IMG/VR virus record: IMGVR_UViG_2939127364_000002
Direction: 5' to 3' (one strand)
Source: a virus
Lineage: Duplodnaviria; Heunggongvirae; Uroviricota; Caudoviricetes
DNA: 42,479 bases
Shown here: piece by piece, positions 4,184 through 8,926 of the stretch
Layout: each line of letters begins with the position of its first letter
Numbering within the stretch: the stretch's first letter is position 1
Program-made: the position numbers and the translations under genes
Notes under the pieces: generated by a model
What the model was told of the DNA's origin: nothing
Seen by the model: the letters and a program-made list of their open reading frames with translations, nothing else
Databases searched by the model: none

Positions 4184-4411
4184 TCATAATTCACTCTTCA
4201 ATACTTCCAGCTTACTAATCGCCGAAAGATATCCGCGCTGATAGGGCATCATCATTCCTTCGAGCTTGCCACTTCTTAACTCCTCCCTGAGCAATTGTAT
4301 TGCTTGATCAATAACCTCTGCCTTAGCGTCCTTTATGGCTTGCTTGCGGGGCTTTGCTTTCTGCTTTGGCAGATTTCTCAAGCATGATGGAATGTATGTC
4401 TGATTCATCAC
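4184..4411 (-). CDS. Hypothetical early protein (75 aa) immediately downstream of N
   Basis: Track ORF abutting the N stop codon; no family recognised. Confidence 0.5.
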   Translation of the reverse strand: MMNQTYIPSCLRNLPKQKAKPRKQAIKDAKAEVIDQAIQLLREELRSGKLEGMMMPYQRGYLSAISKLEVLKSEL

Positions 4412-4774
4412 TTACCTGGCTGTCAGTTGTTTTGATTTCCGGTATCCTGCCGCGTAAATGGCTACGTTTGGAAGACATACACCAGTTTCTGGTTGCTTAT
4501 GTCCAAACTCATTCGCGTACACAATGGCTGCTCTCTCCAGATTGCGTCTGTATTCTTTCTGTTGCCAGATCACGTCCTGTGCCATGAACTTAATTGGCTT
4601 AGCGTCTTCTATGCGCTCAGGCGTTTCGTGAGTACCTTTAGCCTGAATCTGCGCTCTGCTTAGAGTAGGGCGGTGTAATACTTCTGAGCTTGCCGTAATC
4701 TCATTCTGGAGCGCTGCACGACGCTCACGACGACGACCTGATGCTGAGCCATTGAAAGCTGTTCTGCGTGTCAT
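4412..4774 (-). CDS. N: N-like transcription antiterminator
   Basis: Arginine-rich N-terminus ...GRRRERRAALQ... resembles the lambda N arginine-rich motif; first gene left of the oL region; AGGAGG 7 nt upstream of ATG. Confidence 0.65.
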   Translation of the reverse strand: MTRRTAFNGSASGRRRERRAALQNEITASSEVLHRPTLSRAQIQAKGTHETPERIEDAKPIKFMAQDVIWQQKEYRRNLERAAIVYANEFGHKQPETGVCLPNVAIYAAGYRKSKQLTAR

Positions 4775-4877
4775 AGTGACCTCCTGATGAACTTTGGTGA
4801 TGCAATGGCCGGTGCTTATCTTCGGCTTGCCTCAACGGGCTGCATTTCATCGCATCCCAAAGTTCACTTTGGTTATT

Positions 4878-4891
4878 AGGCTTTTCAGCCT
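4878..4891 (-). promoter_or_regulatory. Candidate nutL boxB-like hairpin
   Basis: On the leftward transcript: CTACG then AGGCU-GAAA-AGCCU; same design as the hairpin at 7461..7474. Confidence 0.4.
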
Positions 4892-4961
4892 CGTAGATTC
4901 ATCTCTGAATCGTTGTATATTCACCGCCCTGGTGAGTAGTGCGTCCTGCTGATGGGTAAAC

Positions 4962-5005
4962 TTTATCGAAATGATAAATCAATGGCAATAGCAAAATGAT
5001 AAATT
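4962..5005. promoter_or_regulatory. oL/pL operator region
   Basis: Two copies of ATGATAAAT (4972..4980, 4996..5004) plus TTTATCG at 4962..4968; the same motif recurs at oR. Confidence 0.5.
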
Positions 5006-5181
5006 CCTTTGGTTTTCAAATATCGTATTGATTCTTATGGTGTTTTATTTTGTTGTAGGAATCCGACAGGATAAATAAAGAGATTTGAGGGAGATCTGGA
5101 TTGCGTGGTTTAGTGAGTTGTATCTGTTTATTTTTCAACAAATACAATTGGTTATGTGTTTTTAGGTGGGGGGATCGTGAG

Positions 5182-5209
5182 GCAAAGAAAACCCGGCTCT
5201 GTGGCCGGG
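5182..5209 (-). terminator. Rho-independent terminator closing the cI operon
   Basis: Minus-strand hairpin cccggc-(6 nt loop)-gccggg followed by TTTTCTTTG, directly after the stop at 5218. Confidence 0.6.
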
Positions 5210-5217
5210 TTAATGCG

Positions 5218-5838
5218 TTAATGCTGGGGAGTGATTTTTTTGTTGTCTGTTGGCTGGGTATTTTGTGGCGGCGCTTGCAAAGTGGAAGGCTGTTGCAAAG
5301 GTGCGTGGTCTGACTTTAAAGCTGATACCAGCCCGGGAATCGCAACTATTACAGCGATAATGACACTAAAAATGGCTAATCGTATAGAAATACCCGACTG
5401 AACACCACTAATTGCGGTATTAACCCCTGTTATTTGTCCTTGAATTCCTTCGAATCTCCCATTAATTGCTTTTATATCGCCAGCAGCGCTATCCATCTTT
5501 CCATCGATCTTGGACGATAGAGAGTTTATGGCTGCATTAAGTGATGCAAATTGGACATTAACGCTTTCACGAGATAGAGCCATGTCAGCCCTAATGGAAG
5601 AAGCAATAGACTCCATCTCTGCTTTATTAGCAGCTAAGCGAGCATCAAGTTCCTCTCTGCTGATCGTTCCCACTTCTTCCTCCGTTTGTGGCGGTTTTAT
5701 GTAATTATTTTGCACCTTGGTGGGAGAATTATCAAATTCAGCCTCAAAATAGGAACCGCCAACAACCTTCAACCTCCGGCTTTCAGATATGTTGGTGTCT
5801 TGCTTTCCATGATTATTTAAATTGCTGTCGTCACTCAT
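5218..5838 (-). CDS. Membrane-anchored coiled-coil protein of unknown function (206 aa), distal gene of the cI operon
   Basis: Polar N-terminus, heptad-like central region, single hydrophobic segment IRLAIFSVIIAVIVAIPGLVSAL near the C-terminus, Pro/Gln-rich tail; ATGA overlap with the upstream gene. Confidence 0.6.
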   Translation of the reverse strand: MSDDSNLNNHGKQDTNISESRRLKVVGGSYFEAEFDNSPTKVQNNYIKPPQTEEEVGTISREELDARLAANKAEMESIASSIRADMALSRESVNVQFASLNAAINSLSSKIDGKMDSAAGDIKAINGRFEGIQGQITGVNTAISGVQSGISIRLAIFSVIIAVIVAIPGLVSALKSDHAPLQQPSTLQAPPQNTQPTDNKKITPQH

Positions 5839-6269
5839 AATAGCTCTACGGTGAAAAATGATTCATTTTTATGAAGTTCATTTTTAGGGTCTTCATTATC
5901 CTGCAATATCCCTATAACACTATACAGCCCTTTAGCTGGGACCCTAATTTCTTTCAATGTTACTATTACCTGTCCGCCAACCCCTGTTTCAAAATGGCTA
6001 TCTTTCGTATCGATGAAAAGTGAAACTGATTCCGAAGAGCCGTCAGGGAATTGAATTTCCTCACCTTTTTTTATAATTAGGTGCGCGGGGATTACCATAA
6101 TACCCAAATTATATCTTGAATTTGGTTTCAACCCGATCATACCAACCCTGAAATCAATTGATAGCCGCGCAGGAAATTCATTGCATGTAAAATTAAGCGT
6201 CGGTTGGTTGGGTTCTTCGCTGCTATCAAATGGGGTTATAAAAGATATTCTTTCTAAATTAAGTGCCAT
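5835..6269 (-). CDS. Hypothetical soluble protein (about 144 aa) between cI and the membrane protein
   Basis: Start placed at ATG 6269 (MALNLERISF...) with AGGAG 5 nt upstream; track start 6323 has no good RBS; no family recognised. Confidence 0.55.
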   Translation of the reverse strand: MALNLERISFITPFDSSEEPNQPTLNFTCNEFPARLSIDFRVGMIGLKPNSRYNLGIMVIPAHLIIKKGEEIQFPDGSSESVSLFIDTKDSHFETGVGGQVIVTLKEIRVPAKGLYSVIGILQDNEDPKNELHKNESFFTVELL

Positions 6270-6370
6270 AAATTCTCCTGCATCGCTGTATGCTCTACGA
6301 GCATCTCGGCGACTTATCATCACCCAAACGTCTCTTCAGGCCACTGGCTACCAGCTATGTGACGATGAAG

Positions 6371-7075
6371 TCACGAATTTTTCAGCCACTCCCTTGCCTC
6401 GATGTCATCCAGATGGCGAGATTGCTTCAGAATACCAGCCACATACTCCACCTTTGCTACTTGATGATAAGGCAACGTTATAGGCCTGTGGTCCTGGTTA
6501 ATGCTTGTAAATTGGTATTCTCCATCTCTGTCATAGCCAAGAACCTTAATCATGTTGTGTCCTTCAACGGTTCTGACAAACACCTCATCACCCGGGAATA
6601 CTTTGGTGTTAGGCTCAATGAGTACATATTCTCCTGATTTTATTCTGGGCCACATGCTGTCTCCTTTCACACGAAGACCAAAGGCATCTGGATCATCGCT
6701 ATAAATTTTGAGCCACCCATCGCGCTCTTCGGTCATCTCGATGGCACCATCAACACCAAGAATTGCCTCACCAACCACGCGCACTAACCCTTTTCTTACC
6801 TGACCGACAAAAGTTAAAGAATCTGAGCATGATGCAATTGGTGTTACATCATGCACCAAATCAAGCCACCCATTAGGTAACCCAAGTGCGGCTTCAAATT
6901 TTCTTGCTAGTTTATCCCCTATGTTTCGAGTGCTTTTTTCACCGGAGACTTGCGTGAGTTGAGAAGGGCTAACCCCAAGCTTATCGGCAAAGCTTGCATT
7001 AGTGTTACCCGCGATTTTTTTATGCTCATCTAGCAAAAACGCTAGATTTGATTTGCGAATATCTTTGTTTTCCAT
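6371..7075 (-). CDS. cI: CI-type prophage repressor (HTH plus S24 LexA-like autopeptidase domain)
   Basis: N-terminal HTH ...SFADKLGVSPSQLTQV...; C-terminal ...GDSMWP... serine-lysine dyad signature; divergent from cro across the operator region. Confidence 0.9.
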   Translation of the reverse strand: MENKDIRKSNLAFLLDEHKKIAGNTNASFADKLGVSPSQLTQVSGEKSTRNIGDKLARKFEAALGLPNGWLDLVHDVTPIASCSDSLTFVGQVRKGLVRVVGEAILGVDGAIEMTEERDGWLKIYSDDPDAFGLRVKGDSMWPRIKSGEYVLIEPNTKVFPGDEVFVRTVEGHNMIKVLGYDRDGEYQFTSINQDHRPITLPYHQVAKVEYVAGILKQSRHLDDIEAREWLKNS

Positions 7076-7100
7076 CCCACAATTTTCCCTCTATTTAGCA

Positions 7101-7180
7101 AATGGATAAATACGCAATATGATAAATTTACATTGCGGTTGATTTATCAAAATGGTAAAGTTATTCTGTATGATAAACGG
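7101..7180. promoter_or_regulatory. oR/pRM/pR operator region
   Basis: TGATAAA at 7120..7126 and 7171..7177, inverted TTTATCA at 7143..7149, GGATAAA at 7104..7110; lies between divergent cI and cro. Confidence 0.55.
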
Positions 7181-7188
7181 AGGCACTA

Positions 7189-7422
7189 ATGAGTAATGAA
7201 CTACTACGCTGGCGAAAAGAGGCTTCTAGTGAGGAATGGAAGCGACTCGCCGCATTAGCGAAAACTTCAGTTGGCTATCTTGACCAGATTGCATATGGAT
7301 TTCGAAGAGCTTCCCCTGATAAAGCGAATGCAATCGAAGAAGCTACTCGTAATTTCACGGGTTATAAACCTGTGAAAAAGGAAAACCTGGTGTTCGTATC
7401 GCGTAGAGCATCGGCAGCATAA
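7189..7422 (+). CDS. cro: Cro-like repressor (77 aa)
   Basis: Small basic protein, first rightward gene after the operators; GGAGG 6 nt upstream of ATG. Confidence 0.75.
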   Translation: MSNELLRWRKEASSEEWKRLAALAKTSVGYLDQIAYGFRRASPDKANAIEEATRNFTGYKPVKKENLVFVSRRASAA

Positions 7423-7460
7423 GTAACACCGCTATTTTCACAATGGACATTCGTCCTACG

Positions 7461-7474
7461 TCGCTGAAAAGCGA
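7461..7474 (+). promoter_or_regulatory. Candidate nutR boxB-like hairpin
   Basis: CTACG then UCGCU-GAAA-AGCGA between cro and cII; a second hairpin atgcgt/acgcat follows at 7505..7520. Confidence 0.4.
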
Positions 7475-7558
7475 GCCCCAAGATATCTGACCAACTAAGG
7501 CCATATGCGTTTCCACGCATACCTTTCAACTAACTATTCACTATTGGAAAATTAACAA

Positions 7559-7855
7559 ATGACACAAGCAAGTTACAGCAAGCCAACACAGCGAGAAATT
7601 GATCGCGCTGAAACTGATTTACTCATCAACCTGTCAACGCTTACCCAGCGCGGTCTGGCAAAGATGATTGGCTGTCATGAATCGAAGATAAGCAGAACGG
7701 ACTGGAGATTTATTGCTTCGGTCTTGTGTGCTTTCGGAATGGCATCAGACATCAGTCCGATTAGCAGGGCTTTTAAGTATGCGCTTGATGAAATCACAAA
7801 GAAAAAATCCCCGGCCGCCACCGAGGATTTTAAGCAAATTGATATGCAATTCTGA
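7559..7855 (+). CDS. cII: CII-like transcriptional activator
   Basis: HTH ...LTQRGLAKMIGCHESKISR...; C-terminus KKKSPAATEDFKQIDMQF parallels lambda CII KKRPAATERSEQIQMEF. Confidence 0.8.
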   Translation: MTQASYSKPTQREIDRAETDLLINLSTLTQRGLAKMIGCHESKISRTDWRFIASVLCAFGMASDISPISRAFKYALDEITKKKSPAATEDFKQIDMQF

Positions 7856-7887
7856 GGGAATTACTGGATCAATCCACAGGAGTAATT

Positions 7888-8049
7888 ATGACAAAACGTC
7901 GTAAGAAATACCAGGAAAAAGAAGAGATTCGACACCCTGATTCACCTGAGGGATTAGTGGTAGCCGCAGCAAATAACAGGGCGTTCGCAGAGCGCCTTGT
8001 TGGTGTTTACAGACTAGCCAAAGCAGGAGTGAAACATGGGCGTCGTTAA
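7888..8049 (+). CDS. Hypothetical small basic protein (53 aa)
   Basis: MTKRRKKYQEKEEIRHPDSPEGLVVAAANN... with AGGAG 6 nt upstream; not in the track. Confidence 0.3.
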   Translation: MTKRRKKYQEKEEIRHPDSPEGLVVAAANNRAFAERLVGVYRLAKAGVKHGRR

Positions 8050-8098: not shown

Positions 8099-8926
8099 AT
8101 GGGGTATGTCTCTATACACCGCCAGTTTATGGACAGCAGGCTCTATAAGGACTCTCAGGCAGTACATCTTTGGCTTCACTTAATCCTCAAGGCTAATCAC
8201 GAATCTACTGTCGTCAATACGGATATCGGTCCGATAACTGTTGATCGCGGTCAGATGATAACTGGACGCCCGTCGCTGGTCAGAGAAACATTCATCCCCG
8301 ACAACAAAGTTCGGAGCTTATTACGGACTTTTGAGTCGAAAGGTATGCTTAATATTTGCTCGATGGGGAAGAAATTTAGCCTGTTTACAATCGTTAAATA
8401 TGACGATTTTCAGGCAAAAAATTGTCCAACGGTTGTCCAACGGTTGTCCAACGCAAACACCAGTAATGGCGCGGCTCTCAGCGGAGATTGTCCAACGGTT
8501 GTCCAACGGTTGTCCATAAACAATAATATAAATAATATCTCTAATACTGACGTATTAGAGAGTGCCACAGCAGACAAAAAGTCTGACAAGAAAAAACCTT
8601 CCGTTAGCTGTCAGGATGTTGTCGATGCTTACCACGAAATCCTTCCTGAAGCGCCAAGAATCCGCGCACTGAATGACAAGCGTAAAAACCAGATCCGAAC
8701 GTTCTGGCGCAAAGCCGGAGTGATAACCCGCCAGCTTGACGGGCATGGGTTCACGATGCAGGACTGGAGAAATTATTTGAGCTACGTTGGCGAAAATTGC
8801 CGATGGATGTTCGAAGAGCGCCCAAACCATCAACGCGGAACCGTCTGGCACAAAAAGGGATTTGATTTCCTGCTTAACGATAATACCTACCTGAAAGTTC
8901 GTGAGGGTGAACACGATGACCGATAA
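8099..8926 (+). CDS. Replication initiator, O-like
   Basis: Start placed at ATG 8099 (MGYVSIHRQF...) with AGGAGG RBS instead of track start 8036; ori-like iterons lie inside the gene; followed by the helicase gene. Confidence 0.7.
   Translation: MGYVSIHRQFMDSRLYKDSQAVHLWLHLILKANHESTVVNTDIGPITVDRGQMITGRPSLVRETFIPDNKVRSLLRTFESKGMLNICSMGKKFSLFTIVKYDDFQAKNCPTVVQRLSNANTSNGAALSGDCPTVVQRLSINNNINNISNTDVLESATADKKSDKKKPSVSCQDVVDAYHEILPEAPRIRALNDKRKNQIRTFWRKAGVITRQLDGHGFTMQDWRNYLSYVGENCRWMFEERPNHQRGTVWHKKGFDFLLNDNTYLKVREGEHDDR
8422..8517. repeat. Replication origin iterons: two clusters of three tandem 11-bp repeats (TTGTCCAACGG)
   Basis: Copies at 8422..8454 and 8488..8517 (last copy partial), then AT-rich stretch 8515..8560; all inside the O-like gene. 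Confidence 0.7.

What the first reader, a model, noticed from the sequence alone, without database searches (positions are those of the whole stretch)
4871..4891. Candidate nutL: CTACG followed by a GAAA-loop hairpin, mirrored at nutR
On the pL transcript, upstream of N, CTACG is followed by AGGCU-GAAA-AGCCU. The same arrangement (CTACG then UCGCU-GAAA-AGCGA) occurs at 7456..7474 between cro and cII. The stems differ but the loop and the 5-prime pentamer are shared, as expected for boxB RNA sites of an arginine-rich-motif N protein. The loop is one nucleotide shorter than lambda boxB as I remember it.
Basis: partly seen in the sequence, partly recalled or inferred. Interest (0 to 1): 0.5.

Follow-up and report, generated by a model that had tools for sequence, protein, structure and literature searches.

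The report
Phage N antiterminator RNA sites (nutL, nutR)
The two small RNA hairpins are almost certainly the docking sites (nutL and nutR) where this lambda-like phage's N protein loads onto RNA polymerase to read through terminators; this is an ordinary, known kind of element, and its 4-base GAAA loop always goes with one particular version of the N protein's RNA-binding tip.

Summary
On the minus strand, CUACG (4896..4892) precedes AGGCU-GAAA-AGCCU (4891..4878), between pL and N. On the plus strand, CUACG (7456..7460) precedes UCGCU-GAAA-AGCGA (7461..7474), between cro and cII.

The window carries the immunity region of phage H-19B, whose N protein and nutR have been tested experimentally. 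In about 440 nt around nutR, the only boxB difference is the loss of one loop C (GACAA to GAAA).

Across 189 distinct related loci there are two classes:
- N with the arginine-rich motif RRRERLK always has GACAA loops at both sites (77 loci with both sites).
- N with RRR[E/A]RRAxLQ always has GAAA loops (one GCAA) at both sites (98 loci). This class includes the window, Salmonella phage epsilon34 and Stx2 phage VT2-Sakai.
- No locus is mixed, even where the same cro type occurs with either N.

The outer stem pairs change in a compensatory way. The upper stem, the loop and a UACG linker are invariant. A structure-conserved spacer hairpin lies upstream of each boxB.

The element is a new member of a known kind: GenBank already annotates the VT2-Sakai sites as putative nut sites. 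Binding and antitermination by this N were not tested.

The parts
4960..4988 (-). pL promoter (TTGCCA, 17 nt, TAAAGT). The transcript start is inferred at about 4953, by homology of the leader AUCAGCAGGACGCAC to the lambda pL transcript.
   Evidence: Promoter scan; leader homology to lambda; operator-like ATGATAAAT repeats read.
4921..4935 (-). pL leader hairpin UCACC-AGGGC-GGUGA. It corresponds to CACC-AUGAA-GGUG in the lambda pL leader, just 5' of the lambda boxA.
   Evidence: Fold; comparison with lambda.
4912..4920 (-). Position homologous to the boxA of lambda nutL. It reads AUAUACAAC, so only the ACAAC tail is kept (degenerate boxA).
   Evidence: Lambda has GGUGA-CGCUCUUAA here. Relatives L093-L095, L110-L111 and VT2-Sakai have UGCUCUUUACACAAC or GCUCUUUAAACAAC at the same place.
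4896..4911 (-). nutL spacer hairpin GAUUCA-GAGA-UGAAUC, between ACAAC and UACG.
   Evidence: Fold. In relatives there are 19 sequence variants of the spacer hairpin and all of them pair.
4892..4895 (-). nutL UACG linker between the spacer hairpin and boxB.
   Evidence: UACG is present in all related nutL and nutR sites collected, though the search pattern required it.
4878..4891 (-). nutL boxB: AGGCU-GAAA-AGCCU, a 5-bp stem capped by a GNRA tetraloop.
   Evidence: Relatives have A-U, C-G or U-A at the outermost pair. The loop type co-varies with the N arginine-rich motif.
4412..4774 (-). N antitermination protein, 120 aa.
   Evidence: Pfam PF25694; PHROG 271; 83% identity to H-19B N overall, with only 3 differences in residues 29-120.
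4691..4750 (-). Codons 9-28 of N: the arginine-rich motif GSASGRRRERRAALQNEITA, the predicted boxB-binding helix.
   Evidence: This is the only divergent segment relative to H-19B N. In H-19B, mutations at R15 and R18 of the motif abolish antitermination (PMC3526286). The variant RRR[E/A]RRAxLQ always occurs with GAAA loops.
7133..7161 (+). Inferred pR promoter (TTGCGG, 17 nt, TAAAGT), a near-copy of pL.
   Evidence: Read. It shares the same -10 hexamer and the TTGATTTATCA operator core with pL. The scan did not list it because the first hexamer matches TTGACA at only 3 of 6 positions. This is an inference.
7430..7443 (+). nutR boxA CGCUAUUUUCACAA.
   Evidence: Same position as the annotated boxA CGCUCUUUU in HK106. 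H-19B has the same CGCUAUUUU. It resembles the lambda nutR boxA CGCUCUUACACA.
7445..7456 (+). nutR spacer hairpin GGAC-AUUC-GUCC.
   Evidence: Fold. Three of its four pairs show compensatory changes in relatives, and 100% of cells are paired. The Sen laboratory reports two hairpins in H-19B nutR.
7457..7460 (+). nutR UACG linker.
   Evidence: Present in every related site collected.
7461..7474 (+). nutR boxB: UCGCU-GAAA-AGCGA.
   Evidence: It differs from H-19B nutR boxB only by the absence of the loop C. The second pair is C-G or A-U in relatives.
7475..7558 (+). Region homologous to the Rho-dependent terminator tR1 that overlaps H-19B nutR. It is the first terminator that N would overcome.
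   Evidence: Near-identity to H-19B downstream of nutR. H-19B nutR/tR1 was studied in PMC3526286. Terminator function here is an inference.

Best explanation
The two hairpins are the boxB elements of nutL and nutR of a lambda-like phage that has the immunity region of phage H-19B. RNA polymerase starting at pL or pR transcribes a nut site with this layout: (boxA) - ACAAY - spacer hairpin - UACG - boxB. The nascent boxB is a 5-bp stem closed by U-A and capped by a true GNRA tetraloop (GAAA). It is bound by the N-terminal arginine-rich helix of N (GSASGRRRERRAALQNEITA). The rest of N is 97% identical to H-19B N. That part engages NusA and RNA polymerase, so the modified polymerase reads through the Rho-dependent tR1 next to nutR and through terminators further downstream on both arms. 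The GAAA loop is the RNA half of a matched pair. N proteins with RRR[E/A]RRAxLQ use GAAA; N proteins with RRRERLK (H-19B, HK97) use the P22-like GACAA pentaloop. Shown here: location, fold, conservation, compensatory changes, and strict co-variation of motif and loop. Inferred: physical binding, discrimination between the two loops, dependence on Nus factors, and antitermination itself.
For: N is identified by Pfam PF25694 (E = 3.5e-20) and by 83% identity to H-19B N, with divergence confined to residues 6-28. Sequence around nutR is near-identical to H-19B over about 440 nt, and the only boxB change is deletion of the loop C. H-19B N, its motif 12-RSRRRER-18 and its nutR/tR1 are experimentally validated; N plus NusA protect the spacer and boxB (PMC3526286). 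The HK106 GenBank record annotates the homologous sites as putative nutL and nutR boxB. The VT2-Sakai record annotates the tetraloop sites as putative N-utilization sites. In 189 distinct loci, 77 with RRRERLK have GACAA at both sites and 98 with RRR[E/A]RRAxLQ have GAAA at both (one has GCAA at nutL); none is mixed. Four cro sequence types occur with both N classes, and the nutR loop follows N each time (215 loci). Covariation: 100% of cells paired, 4 pairs with changes on both sides, and 0 of 500 shuffles reach the observed score. The outer two boxB pairs vary in a compensatory way, while GCU-loop-AGC is invariant. Two such sites are found in the window against 0.003 expected.
Against: There is no direct evidence of binding or antitermination for this N and RNA pair. 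nutL lacks a recognisable boxA at the position homologous to lambda boxA. The site detector required UACG, a U-A closing pair and a G...A loop of 4-5 nt, so an aberrant site would be scored as absent rather than mismatched. Three loci with enough flank lack a detectable site: L089, which is rearranged, and L200 and L205. Many loci are close relatives, so the 175 concordant loci are far fewer independent events. Co-variation shows coupling, but it does not prove that either N rejects the other loop.
Confidence: 0.9

Rival explanations
1. The sites are nut sites, but the GAAA versus GACAA difference is functionally neutral. Both N classes would accept both loops, and the association would reflect linkage and shared ancestry rather than specificity.
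For: nutL boxB lies only about 130-200 nt from the codons for the arginine-rich motif. It is inside the same divergent block, so linkage alone could explain the nutL association. The extruded base of pentaloop boxBs is not part of the GNRA fold (PMC12027372; PMC12550061). From memory, Legault et al. 1998 found that lambda N peptide tolerates a tetraloop version.
Against: nutR lies about 2.7 kb away, across the highly mosaic immunity region. It still matches N in all 175 loci that have both sites. The same four cro types carry GACAA with one N class and GAAA with the other. In the window, nutR differs from H-19B and mEp506 essentially by the single loop base. In P22 the looped-out C contacts the peptide (PMC12550061).
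Confidence: 0.15
2. The hairpins act mainly as something other than N sites. Candidates are RNA stability or processing elements, Rho-utilisation modulators, or targets of an exclusion protein such as a Nun-like factor from another phage.
For: In lambda and H-19B, nutR overlaps the rut site of tR1, and Rho and NusA footprint on the spacer. GNRA-capped 5-bp hairpins are over-represented in the window overall: 12 found against 2.5 expected.
Against: Only these two hairpins have UACG, a U-A closing pair and GAAA. They sit exactly where nut sites sit, they are homologous to tested nut sites, and their loop tracks the N motif. There is no T-run, so they are not intrinsic terminators.
Confidence: 0.04
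3. Chance resemblance: two unrelated short palindromes that happen to share a pentamer and a loop.
For: Each hairpin is only 14 nt long. The nutR region as a 66-mer does not fold significantly better than shuffles (z = -1.1).
Against: Expected count is 0.003 against 2 observed. The sites are conserved with compensatory changes in over 200 loci from E. coli, Salmonella and Enterobacter phages.
Confidence: 0.01

Closest known systems
Phage H-19B (and HK97, HK106, BP-4795, mEp506) N / nutL / nutR
   Same: The immunity region is the same (cI 234 aa, cro 77 aa, cII 98 aa). The nut architecture is the same: boxA - ACAAY - spacer hairpin - UACG - boxB. The flanks are near-identical, and N residues 29-120 are 97% identical. 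H-19B N needs its arginine-rich motif and, with NusA and NusG, overcomes Rho at nutR/tR1.
   Different: H-19B has GACAA pentaloops (nutL GCGCU-GACAA-AGCGC, nutR UCGCU-GACAA-AGCGA) and a 7-residue-longer N terminus (RSRRRERLKAKALANGVLAREEAI). The window has GAAA tetraloops and GRRRERRAALQNEIT. The nutL stem differs by two compensatory pairs, and the N leader is about 65 nt shorter.
Stx2 phage VT2-Sakai N and its annotated putative N-utilization sites; Salmonella phage epsilon34 gp43
   Same: The boxB class is the same: UACG + NNGCU-GAAA-AGCNN at both nut sites. The spacer hairpin and motif type are the same (Sakai AASRRRARRANLQSQ; epsilon34 AAGRRRERRAALQNA). GenBank AP000422 annotates the Sakai sites as putative nut sites. 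The epsilon34 paper predicted a novel BoxB specificity from the N-terminal 27 residues (PMC2629481).
   Different: VT2-Sakai N is 90 aa and only 42% identical to the window N; it lacks the central segment. VT2-Sakai nutL has a good boxA (GCUCUUUAAACAAC) and the window nutL does not. Epsilon34 N is about 81% identical and sits in a P22-like podovirus of Salmonella.
Phage P22 gp24 (N) / boxB
   Same: The C-terminal YAAGYRKSKQ(L/I)TAR tail is shared. The stem CGCU...AGCG is shared with nutR. The loop is GNRA-like.
   Different: P22 boxB is the pentaloop GACAA, with the third base looped out and touching the peptide (PMC12550061). The P22-type nutL (read in ST104) has a short linear spacer with no spacer hairpin and no UACG. 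The P22 motif is TRRHERRRKLAIERD.
Phage lambda N / boxB
   Same: The genomic logic is the same: nutL between pL and N, nutR between cro and cII. The start of the pL leader is homologous. The motif core RRRERRA is identical to lambda N residues 6-12, and the Q three residues later matches Q15. There is a U-A closing pair and a GNRA fold.
   Different: Lambda loops are pentaloops (GAAGA, GAAAA) whose fourth base is extruded (PMC12027372). The lambda stem is GCCCU/AGGGC. Lambda has Trp18 where the window N has Ile26. The lambda spacer is 8-9 linear nt, and lambda boxA is intact in both sites. There is no detectable similarity outside the motif.

Membership tests
Lambdoid N-utilisation (nut) site | One site on each early transcript near the promoter: nutL between pL and N, nutR between cro and cII | tested here: met
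   boxB 4878..4891(-) lies downstream of pL (4960..4988) and upstream of N (4774). boxB 7461..7474(+) lies between cro (ends 7422) and cII (starts 7559)..
Lambdoid N-utilisation (nut) site | boxB: a short hairpin with a purine-rich GNRA-type loop, maintained by compensatory change | tested here: met
   5-bp stems with GAAA loops. 100% of cells are paired, and the outer pairs change on both sides.
Lambdoid N-utilisation (nut) site | boxA (CGCUCUUUA-like) 5' of boxB | tested here: inconclusive
   nutR has CGCUAUUUUCACAA at 7430..7443, in the position annotated as boxA in HK106. At the position homologous to lambda boxA, nutL reads AUAUACAAC. The CGCACUACU called boxA in the HK106 record corresponds to lambda pL leader CGCACUGAC, which is not the lambda boxA.
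Lambdoid N-utilisation (nut) site | [quoted passage not shown] | tested here: met
   Pfam PF25694, E = 3.5e-20; motif GRRRERRA at residues 13-20.
Lambdoid N-utilisation (nut) site | N binds boxB RNA, and the site confers N-dependent read-through of terminators | not testable with these tools
   Shown experimentally only for the H-19B homologue (PMC3526286).
H-19B-type nut site | Dyad symmetry (a hairpin) in the boxA-boxB spacer | tested here: met
   GAUUCA-GAGA-UGAAUC (4896..4911) and GGAC-AUUC-GUCC (7445..7456). There are 19 variants in relatives and all pair.
H-19B-type nut site | Sequence homology of the nut flanks to H-19B nutL and nutR | tested here: met
   Pairwise alignments.
H-19B-type nut site | GACAA pentaloop boxB paired with the motif RSRRRERLKAK | tested here: not met
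   The window has GAAA at both sites and the motif GRRRERRAALQ.
Lambda-type boxB | GNRNA pentaloop with the fourth base extruded | tested here: not met
   The loop is 4 nt if the U-A pair closes it. Lambda loops were read.
P22-type boxB | GACAA pentaloop with the third base looped out; short linear spacer | tested here: not met
   The loop is GAAA, and the spacer contains a hairpin plus UACG.
Tetraloop boxB class (VT2-Sakai / epsilon34 type) | UACG + NNGCU-GNRA-AGCNN at both nut sites, together with the N motif RRR[E/A]RRAx[LVM]Q | tested here: met
   The window matches both features. 98 of 98 loci of this motif type that have both sites show the tetraloop.

The most novel reading that the evidence does not exclude
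The GAAA-tetraloop boxB paired with the RRR[E/A]RRAxLQ motif would be a fourth natural N-boxB recognition mode. It would stand beside lambda (pentaloop, fourth base out), P22 (pentaloop, third base out) and phi21 (hexaloop). Here a canonical GNRA tetraloop is read with no extruded nucleotide. From memory, Legault et al. 1998 reported that the extruded base of lambda boxB is what lets NusA recognise the N-boxB complex. If so, this class must recruit NusA differently, perhaps through the invariant UACG linker and the spacer hairpin. It also suggests that specificity can be switched at nutR by a single-base insertion or deletion. Finally, it would give a compact peptide-RNA tethering pair orthogonal to lambda N-boxB.
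Probability: 0.35. Interest if true: 0.55.

Novelty: new member of a known kind. Interest (0 to 1): 0.35.

Why it matters
For annotating this window the result is routine. It fixes nutL, nutR, pL, pR and the RNA-binding part of N in a phage with H-19B immunity.

The wider point concerns natural N proteins of the H-19B, HK97 and VT2-Sakai family. They fall into two strictly matched peptide-RNA classes whose RNA halves differ by one loop nucleotide. One class uses a bona fide GNRA tetraloop. The structural papers I could search describe natural boxB loops only as pentaloops or hexaloops.

The pair occurs in clinically important Stx2 prophages such as VT2-Sakai, where N-dependent read-through feeds into late gene and toxin expression. 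It could also supply an orthogonal peptide-hairpin tether for synthetic biology, and it is a clean natural case of protein-RNA co-evolution across a mosaic region.

Tried and rejected
- Rfam: a permissive search of 4300..8000 found no nut or boxB family, only two sub-threshold chance hits.
- PDB sequence search with N: no relative of this N family has a solved structure.
- The first genome-contig scan, with the 50-aa N terminus, was swamped by low-complexity patterns and confirmed nothing. The second scan gave only 7 loci.
- MAFFT alignments that mix pentaloop and tetraloop sites were out of structural register. I therefore counted pairs on gap-free subsets and by direct parsing.
- Ten literature searches found no paper describing a natural tetraloop boxB or the nut sites of BP-4795, 933W or VT2-Sakai. 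Key older papers are not in the held library, so I cite them only from memory: Neely and Friedman 1998 and 2000, Plunkett 1999, Legault 1998, Cocozaki 2008, Franklin 2004, Degnan 2007 (failed look-ups).
- I considered that the window's arginine-rich motif is specifically lambda-like. By hand count it is 10/22 identical to lambda and 9/22 to P22, so I make no such claim.
- I considered the HK106 record's nutL boxA (CGCACUACU) and rejected it as the homologue of lambda boxA.
- I considered the other two CTACG-N5-GAAA matches (7204, 8782) as extra nut sites. Neither is a GNRA hairpin.

Full report
OBSERVATION

On the minus strand, which is the sense of leftward transcription, it reads 5'-CUACG(4896..4892)-AGGCU(4891..4887)-GAAA(4886..4883)-AGCCU(4882..4878). 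This lies 103 nt upstream of the ATG at 4774. On the plus strand it reads CUACG(7456..7460)-UCGCU-GAAA-AGCGA(7461..7474). This lies between the stop codon of the 77-aa cro-like ORF (7422) and the start of cII (7559).

The interval given for the left site (4871..4891) contains the hairpin but not the pentamer. UACG followed by a perfect 5-bp stem and a GNRA loop occurs exactly twice in the 42.5-kb window, against 0.003 expected in shuffles. Both 22-mers fold as the stated hairpins.

CONTEXT

The ORF at 4412..4774(-) is an N antiterminator (Pfam PF25694, E = 3.5e-20; PHROG 271). The gene at 6371..7075(-) is an S24-peptidase cI repressor, and 7559..7855(+) is cII.

A promoter-like TTGCCA-17-TAAAGT lies at 4988..4960(-). 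The transcript that follows begins AUCAGCAGGACGCAC, as the lambda pL transcript does. A near-copy of this promoter, TTGCGG-17-TAAAGT at 7133..7161(+), is the inferred pR.

Megablast shows the cI-cro-cII block is about 97% identical to BP-4795, mEp506 and many Stx1 phages. It matches phage H-19B with the same gene sizes. The window as a whole looks like a complete lambda-like siphovirus genome, judged from ORF sizes and order only.

HOMOLOGY TO KNOWN NUT SITES

The HK106 GenBank record annotates putative nutL and nutR boxA and boxB. Its nutL and nutR flanks are essentially identical to the window. Its boxBs, however, read GCGCU-GACAA-AGCGC and UCGCU-GACAA-AGCGA.

A direct alignment with H-19B covers about 440 nt from the cro start into cII. 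The only change inside boxB is the absence of the loop C.

On the left arm, identity runs from pL up to the CUACG pentamer, with three differences in the spacer-hairpin loop. It breaks down from boxB, through the N leader, to about codon 28 of N, and then resumes. So the nutL boxB and the codons of the arginine-rich motif lie in one divergent block of about 220 nt. nutR, about 2.7 kb away, differs by a single base.

H-19B N and nutR/tR1 have been studied experimentally (PMC3526286). Point mutations in the motif 12-RSRRRER-18 abolish antitermination. N plus NusA/NusG protect the spacer and boxB. [quoted passage not shown]

CO-VARIATION OF THE N MOTIF AND THE LOOP

I fetched 236 loci that encode relatives of this N. 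For each I tabulated the N terminus, nutL and nutR. The 189 distinct loci gave these results:
- 77 loci with RRRERLK-type N (127 aa; H-19B, HK97, HK106) have GACAA at both sites.
- 98 loci with RRR[E/A]RRAx[L/V/M]Q have GAAA at both sites; one of them has GCAA, still GNRA, at nutL.
- The tetraloop class includes the window type (120 aa), the Salmonella phages epsilon34 and g341c, an Enterobacter prophage, a 108-aa form, and the 90-aa N of Stx2 phage VT2-Sakai.
- No locus is mixed.
- Of the 14 loci lacking a detectable site, 11 are truncated contigs, one (L089) is rearranged upstream of N, and two (L200, L205) lack nutR within the available flank.

Four different cro sequence types each occur with both N classes, and the nutR loop follows N every time. 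BP-4795 and mEp506 share the window's immunity region but carry the H-19B-type N, and they have GACAA at nutR. Linkage could explain the nutL association. It cannot easily explain the nutR association, so I read this as selection for a matched peptide-RNA pair.

STRUCTURE SUPPORT

Among the tetraloop boxBs:
- The outermost pair is A-U, C-G or U-A.
- The second pair is G-C, C-G or A-U.
- The three inner pairs (G-C, C-G, U-A) never vary, and the loop varies only in the single GCAA site.

This pattern is what is expected if the protein reads the loop and upper stem, as lambda N does for the closing U-A pair and the loop G (PMC12027372).

For twelve distinct nutR variants, all 108 cells pair and four pairs show changes on both sides. 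None of 500 shuffles, and no slid register, reaches the observed covariation score.

SPACER HAIRPIN AND UACG

Immediately 5' of each boxB lies a second hairpin: nutL GAUUCA-GAGA-UGAAUC at 4911..4896, and nutR GGAC-AUUC-GUCC at 7445..7456. It is preceded by ACAAY and followed by UACG.

Nineteen sequence variants of this hairpin occur in relatives, and all of them pair. Examples are GUCGA/UCGAC, GGUGA/UCACC, GGCC/GGCC and GACC/GGUC. UACG is present in every site collected, although the search pattern required it.

From memory, Neely and Friedman (Mol Microbiol 2000) described this dyad symmetry in H-19B nut spacers. They called it the 'reducer' and reported that H-19B N needs NusA but not NusB, S10 or boxA. 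I could not read that paper here.

BOXA

nutR has CGCUAUUUUCACAA (7430..7443), where HK106 annotates boxA.

In nutL, the position homologous to lambda boxA is just after the GGUGA of the leader hairpin, and it reads AUAUACAAC. More distant relatives and VT2-Sakai keep UGCUCUUUACACAAC or GCUCUUUAAACAAC there.

The CGCACUACU that the HK106 record calls boxA aligns with lambda leader CGCACUGAC, which is not the lambda boxA. The window's nutL therefore seems to lack a functional boxA.

COMPARISON WITH KNOWN SYSTEMS

Known natural boxB loops are:
- the lambda GNRNA pentaloop, with the fourth base extruded (PMC12027372);
- the P22 GACAA pentaloop, with the third base looped out and touching the peptide;
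- the phi21 CUAACC hexaloop (PMC12550061).

The window's loop is what remains when the extruded base of either pentaloop is removed, that is, a canonical GAAA tetraloop. The motif core RRRERRA equals lambda N residues 6-12, and a Q follows three residues later as in lambda. However, the position of Trp18 holds Ile, and overall identity to the lambda and P22 motifs is similar (10/22 and 9/22 by hand count).

Membership in the H-19B-type nut family is met for position, flanks, spacer hairpin and linker. It is not met for loop type. Membership in the lambda or P22 boxB types is not met. The site belongs with VT2-Sakai and epsilon34.

NOVELTY

GenBank AP000422 (VT2-Sakai) annotates 'putative N-utilization leftward/rightward' over the tetraloop sites, although both features end inside the loop. 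The epsilon34 genome paper predicted a novel BoxB specificity from the N-terminal 27 residues without showing the RNA (PMC2629481).

So the kind is known, and this class has already been noticed at the protein level. I did not find, in the searchable library, an explicit statement that this class uses a true tetraloop or that loop and motif co-vary without exception. Several key older papers were not available.

The window's own nutL-leader-motif block is rare in E. coli. Only 1 of 5,426 complete genomes has it. The VT2-Sakai version was found in 58 phage records.

I rate this a new member of a known kind, of modest interest.

WHAT IS SHOWN AND WHAT IS INFERRED

Shown: sequence, position, predicted fold, homology to tested sites, compensatory changes, and co-variation with the N motif.

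Inferred: that this N binds these hairpins, that it discriminates GAAA from GACAA, that NusA is recruited, and that tR1 and downstream terminators are overcome.

Noticed in passing
window 4896..4911 (-) and 7445..7456 (+): Each boxB is preceded by a second, structure-conserved hairpin, flanked by ACAAY on its 5' side and by an invariant UACG on its 3' side. Nineteen sequence variants occur in relatives and all of them pair. In nutL the hairpin is itself capped by a GNRA loop (GAGA).
   Followed up: yes
window 4912..4943 (-); L003 3215..3223: The nutL boxA annotated in the HK106 GenBank record (CGCACUACU, window 4943..4935) aligns with lambda pL leader CGCACUGAC, not with lambda boxA. The true homologous position (window 4920..4912) is degenerate (AUAUACAAC) in the window, H-19B and HK97. 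It is intact in VT2-Sakai and some relatives.
   Followed up: partly
window 5190..6323 (-): Two ORFs of unknown function lie between pL/N and cI: 206 aa (5218..5838, PHROG 5820) and 162 aa (5835..6323, PHROG 5893). This is the position of lambda rexAB. An intrinsic-terminator-like hairpin follows at 5211..5190. mEp506 carries HicAB genes and BP-4795 carries other ORFs in the same slot, so it is a swappable accessory-gene ('moron') site, possibly for exclusion or defence.
   Followed up: partly
window 8782..8803 (+); also L002 about 6458: A third CUACG is followed by a hairpin UUGGC-GAAAAUU-GCCGA (one G-U pair, 7-nt loop) inside the replication gene O, on the pR transcript. It is also present in mEp506, which has the other N class, so it does not track N. 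It is probably chance.
   Followed up: no
whole window: Perfect 5-bp hairpins capped by GNRA tetraloops are over-represented: 12 found against 2.5 +/- 1.5 expected, with a maximum of 8 in 300 shuffles. One of them, at 35846 (+), CGUCA-GAAA-UGACG followed by a U-run, looks like an intrinsic terminator.
   Followed up: partly
window 4775..4877 (-) compared with L148 (H-19B): The untranslated leader between nutL boxB and the N start codon is 103 nt here and about 170 nt in H-19B, and the two are unrelated in sequence apart from the last roughly 25 nt with the ribosome-binding site. The leader travels with the boxB and arginine-rich-motif block. This may matter for N translation control, as it does in lambda.
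   Followed up: no
L089 5700..6010: One relative encodes a tetraloop-class N (RRRERRAALQSAV) but has a rearranged upstream region. It has no recognisable nutL or nutR within 6 kb and is probably a decayed prophage.
   Followed up: partly
L150 and L152/L153 (genome contigs): Contigs filed under Xanthomonas pisi and under a Segatella copri metagenome-assembled genome encode enterobacterial lambdoid N proteins; nut sites were seen in L152 only. They are most likely contaminating or mis-binned contigs.
   Followed up: no
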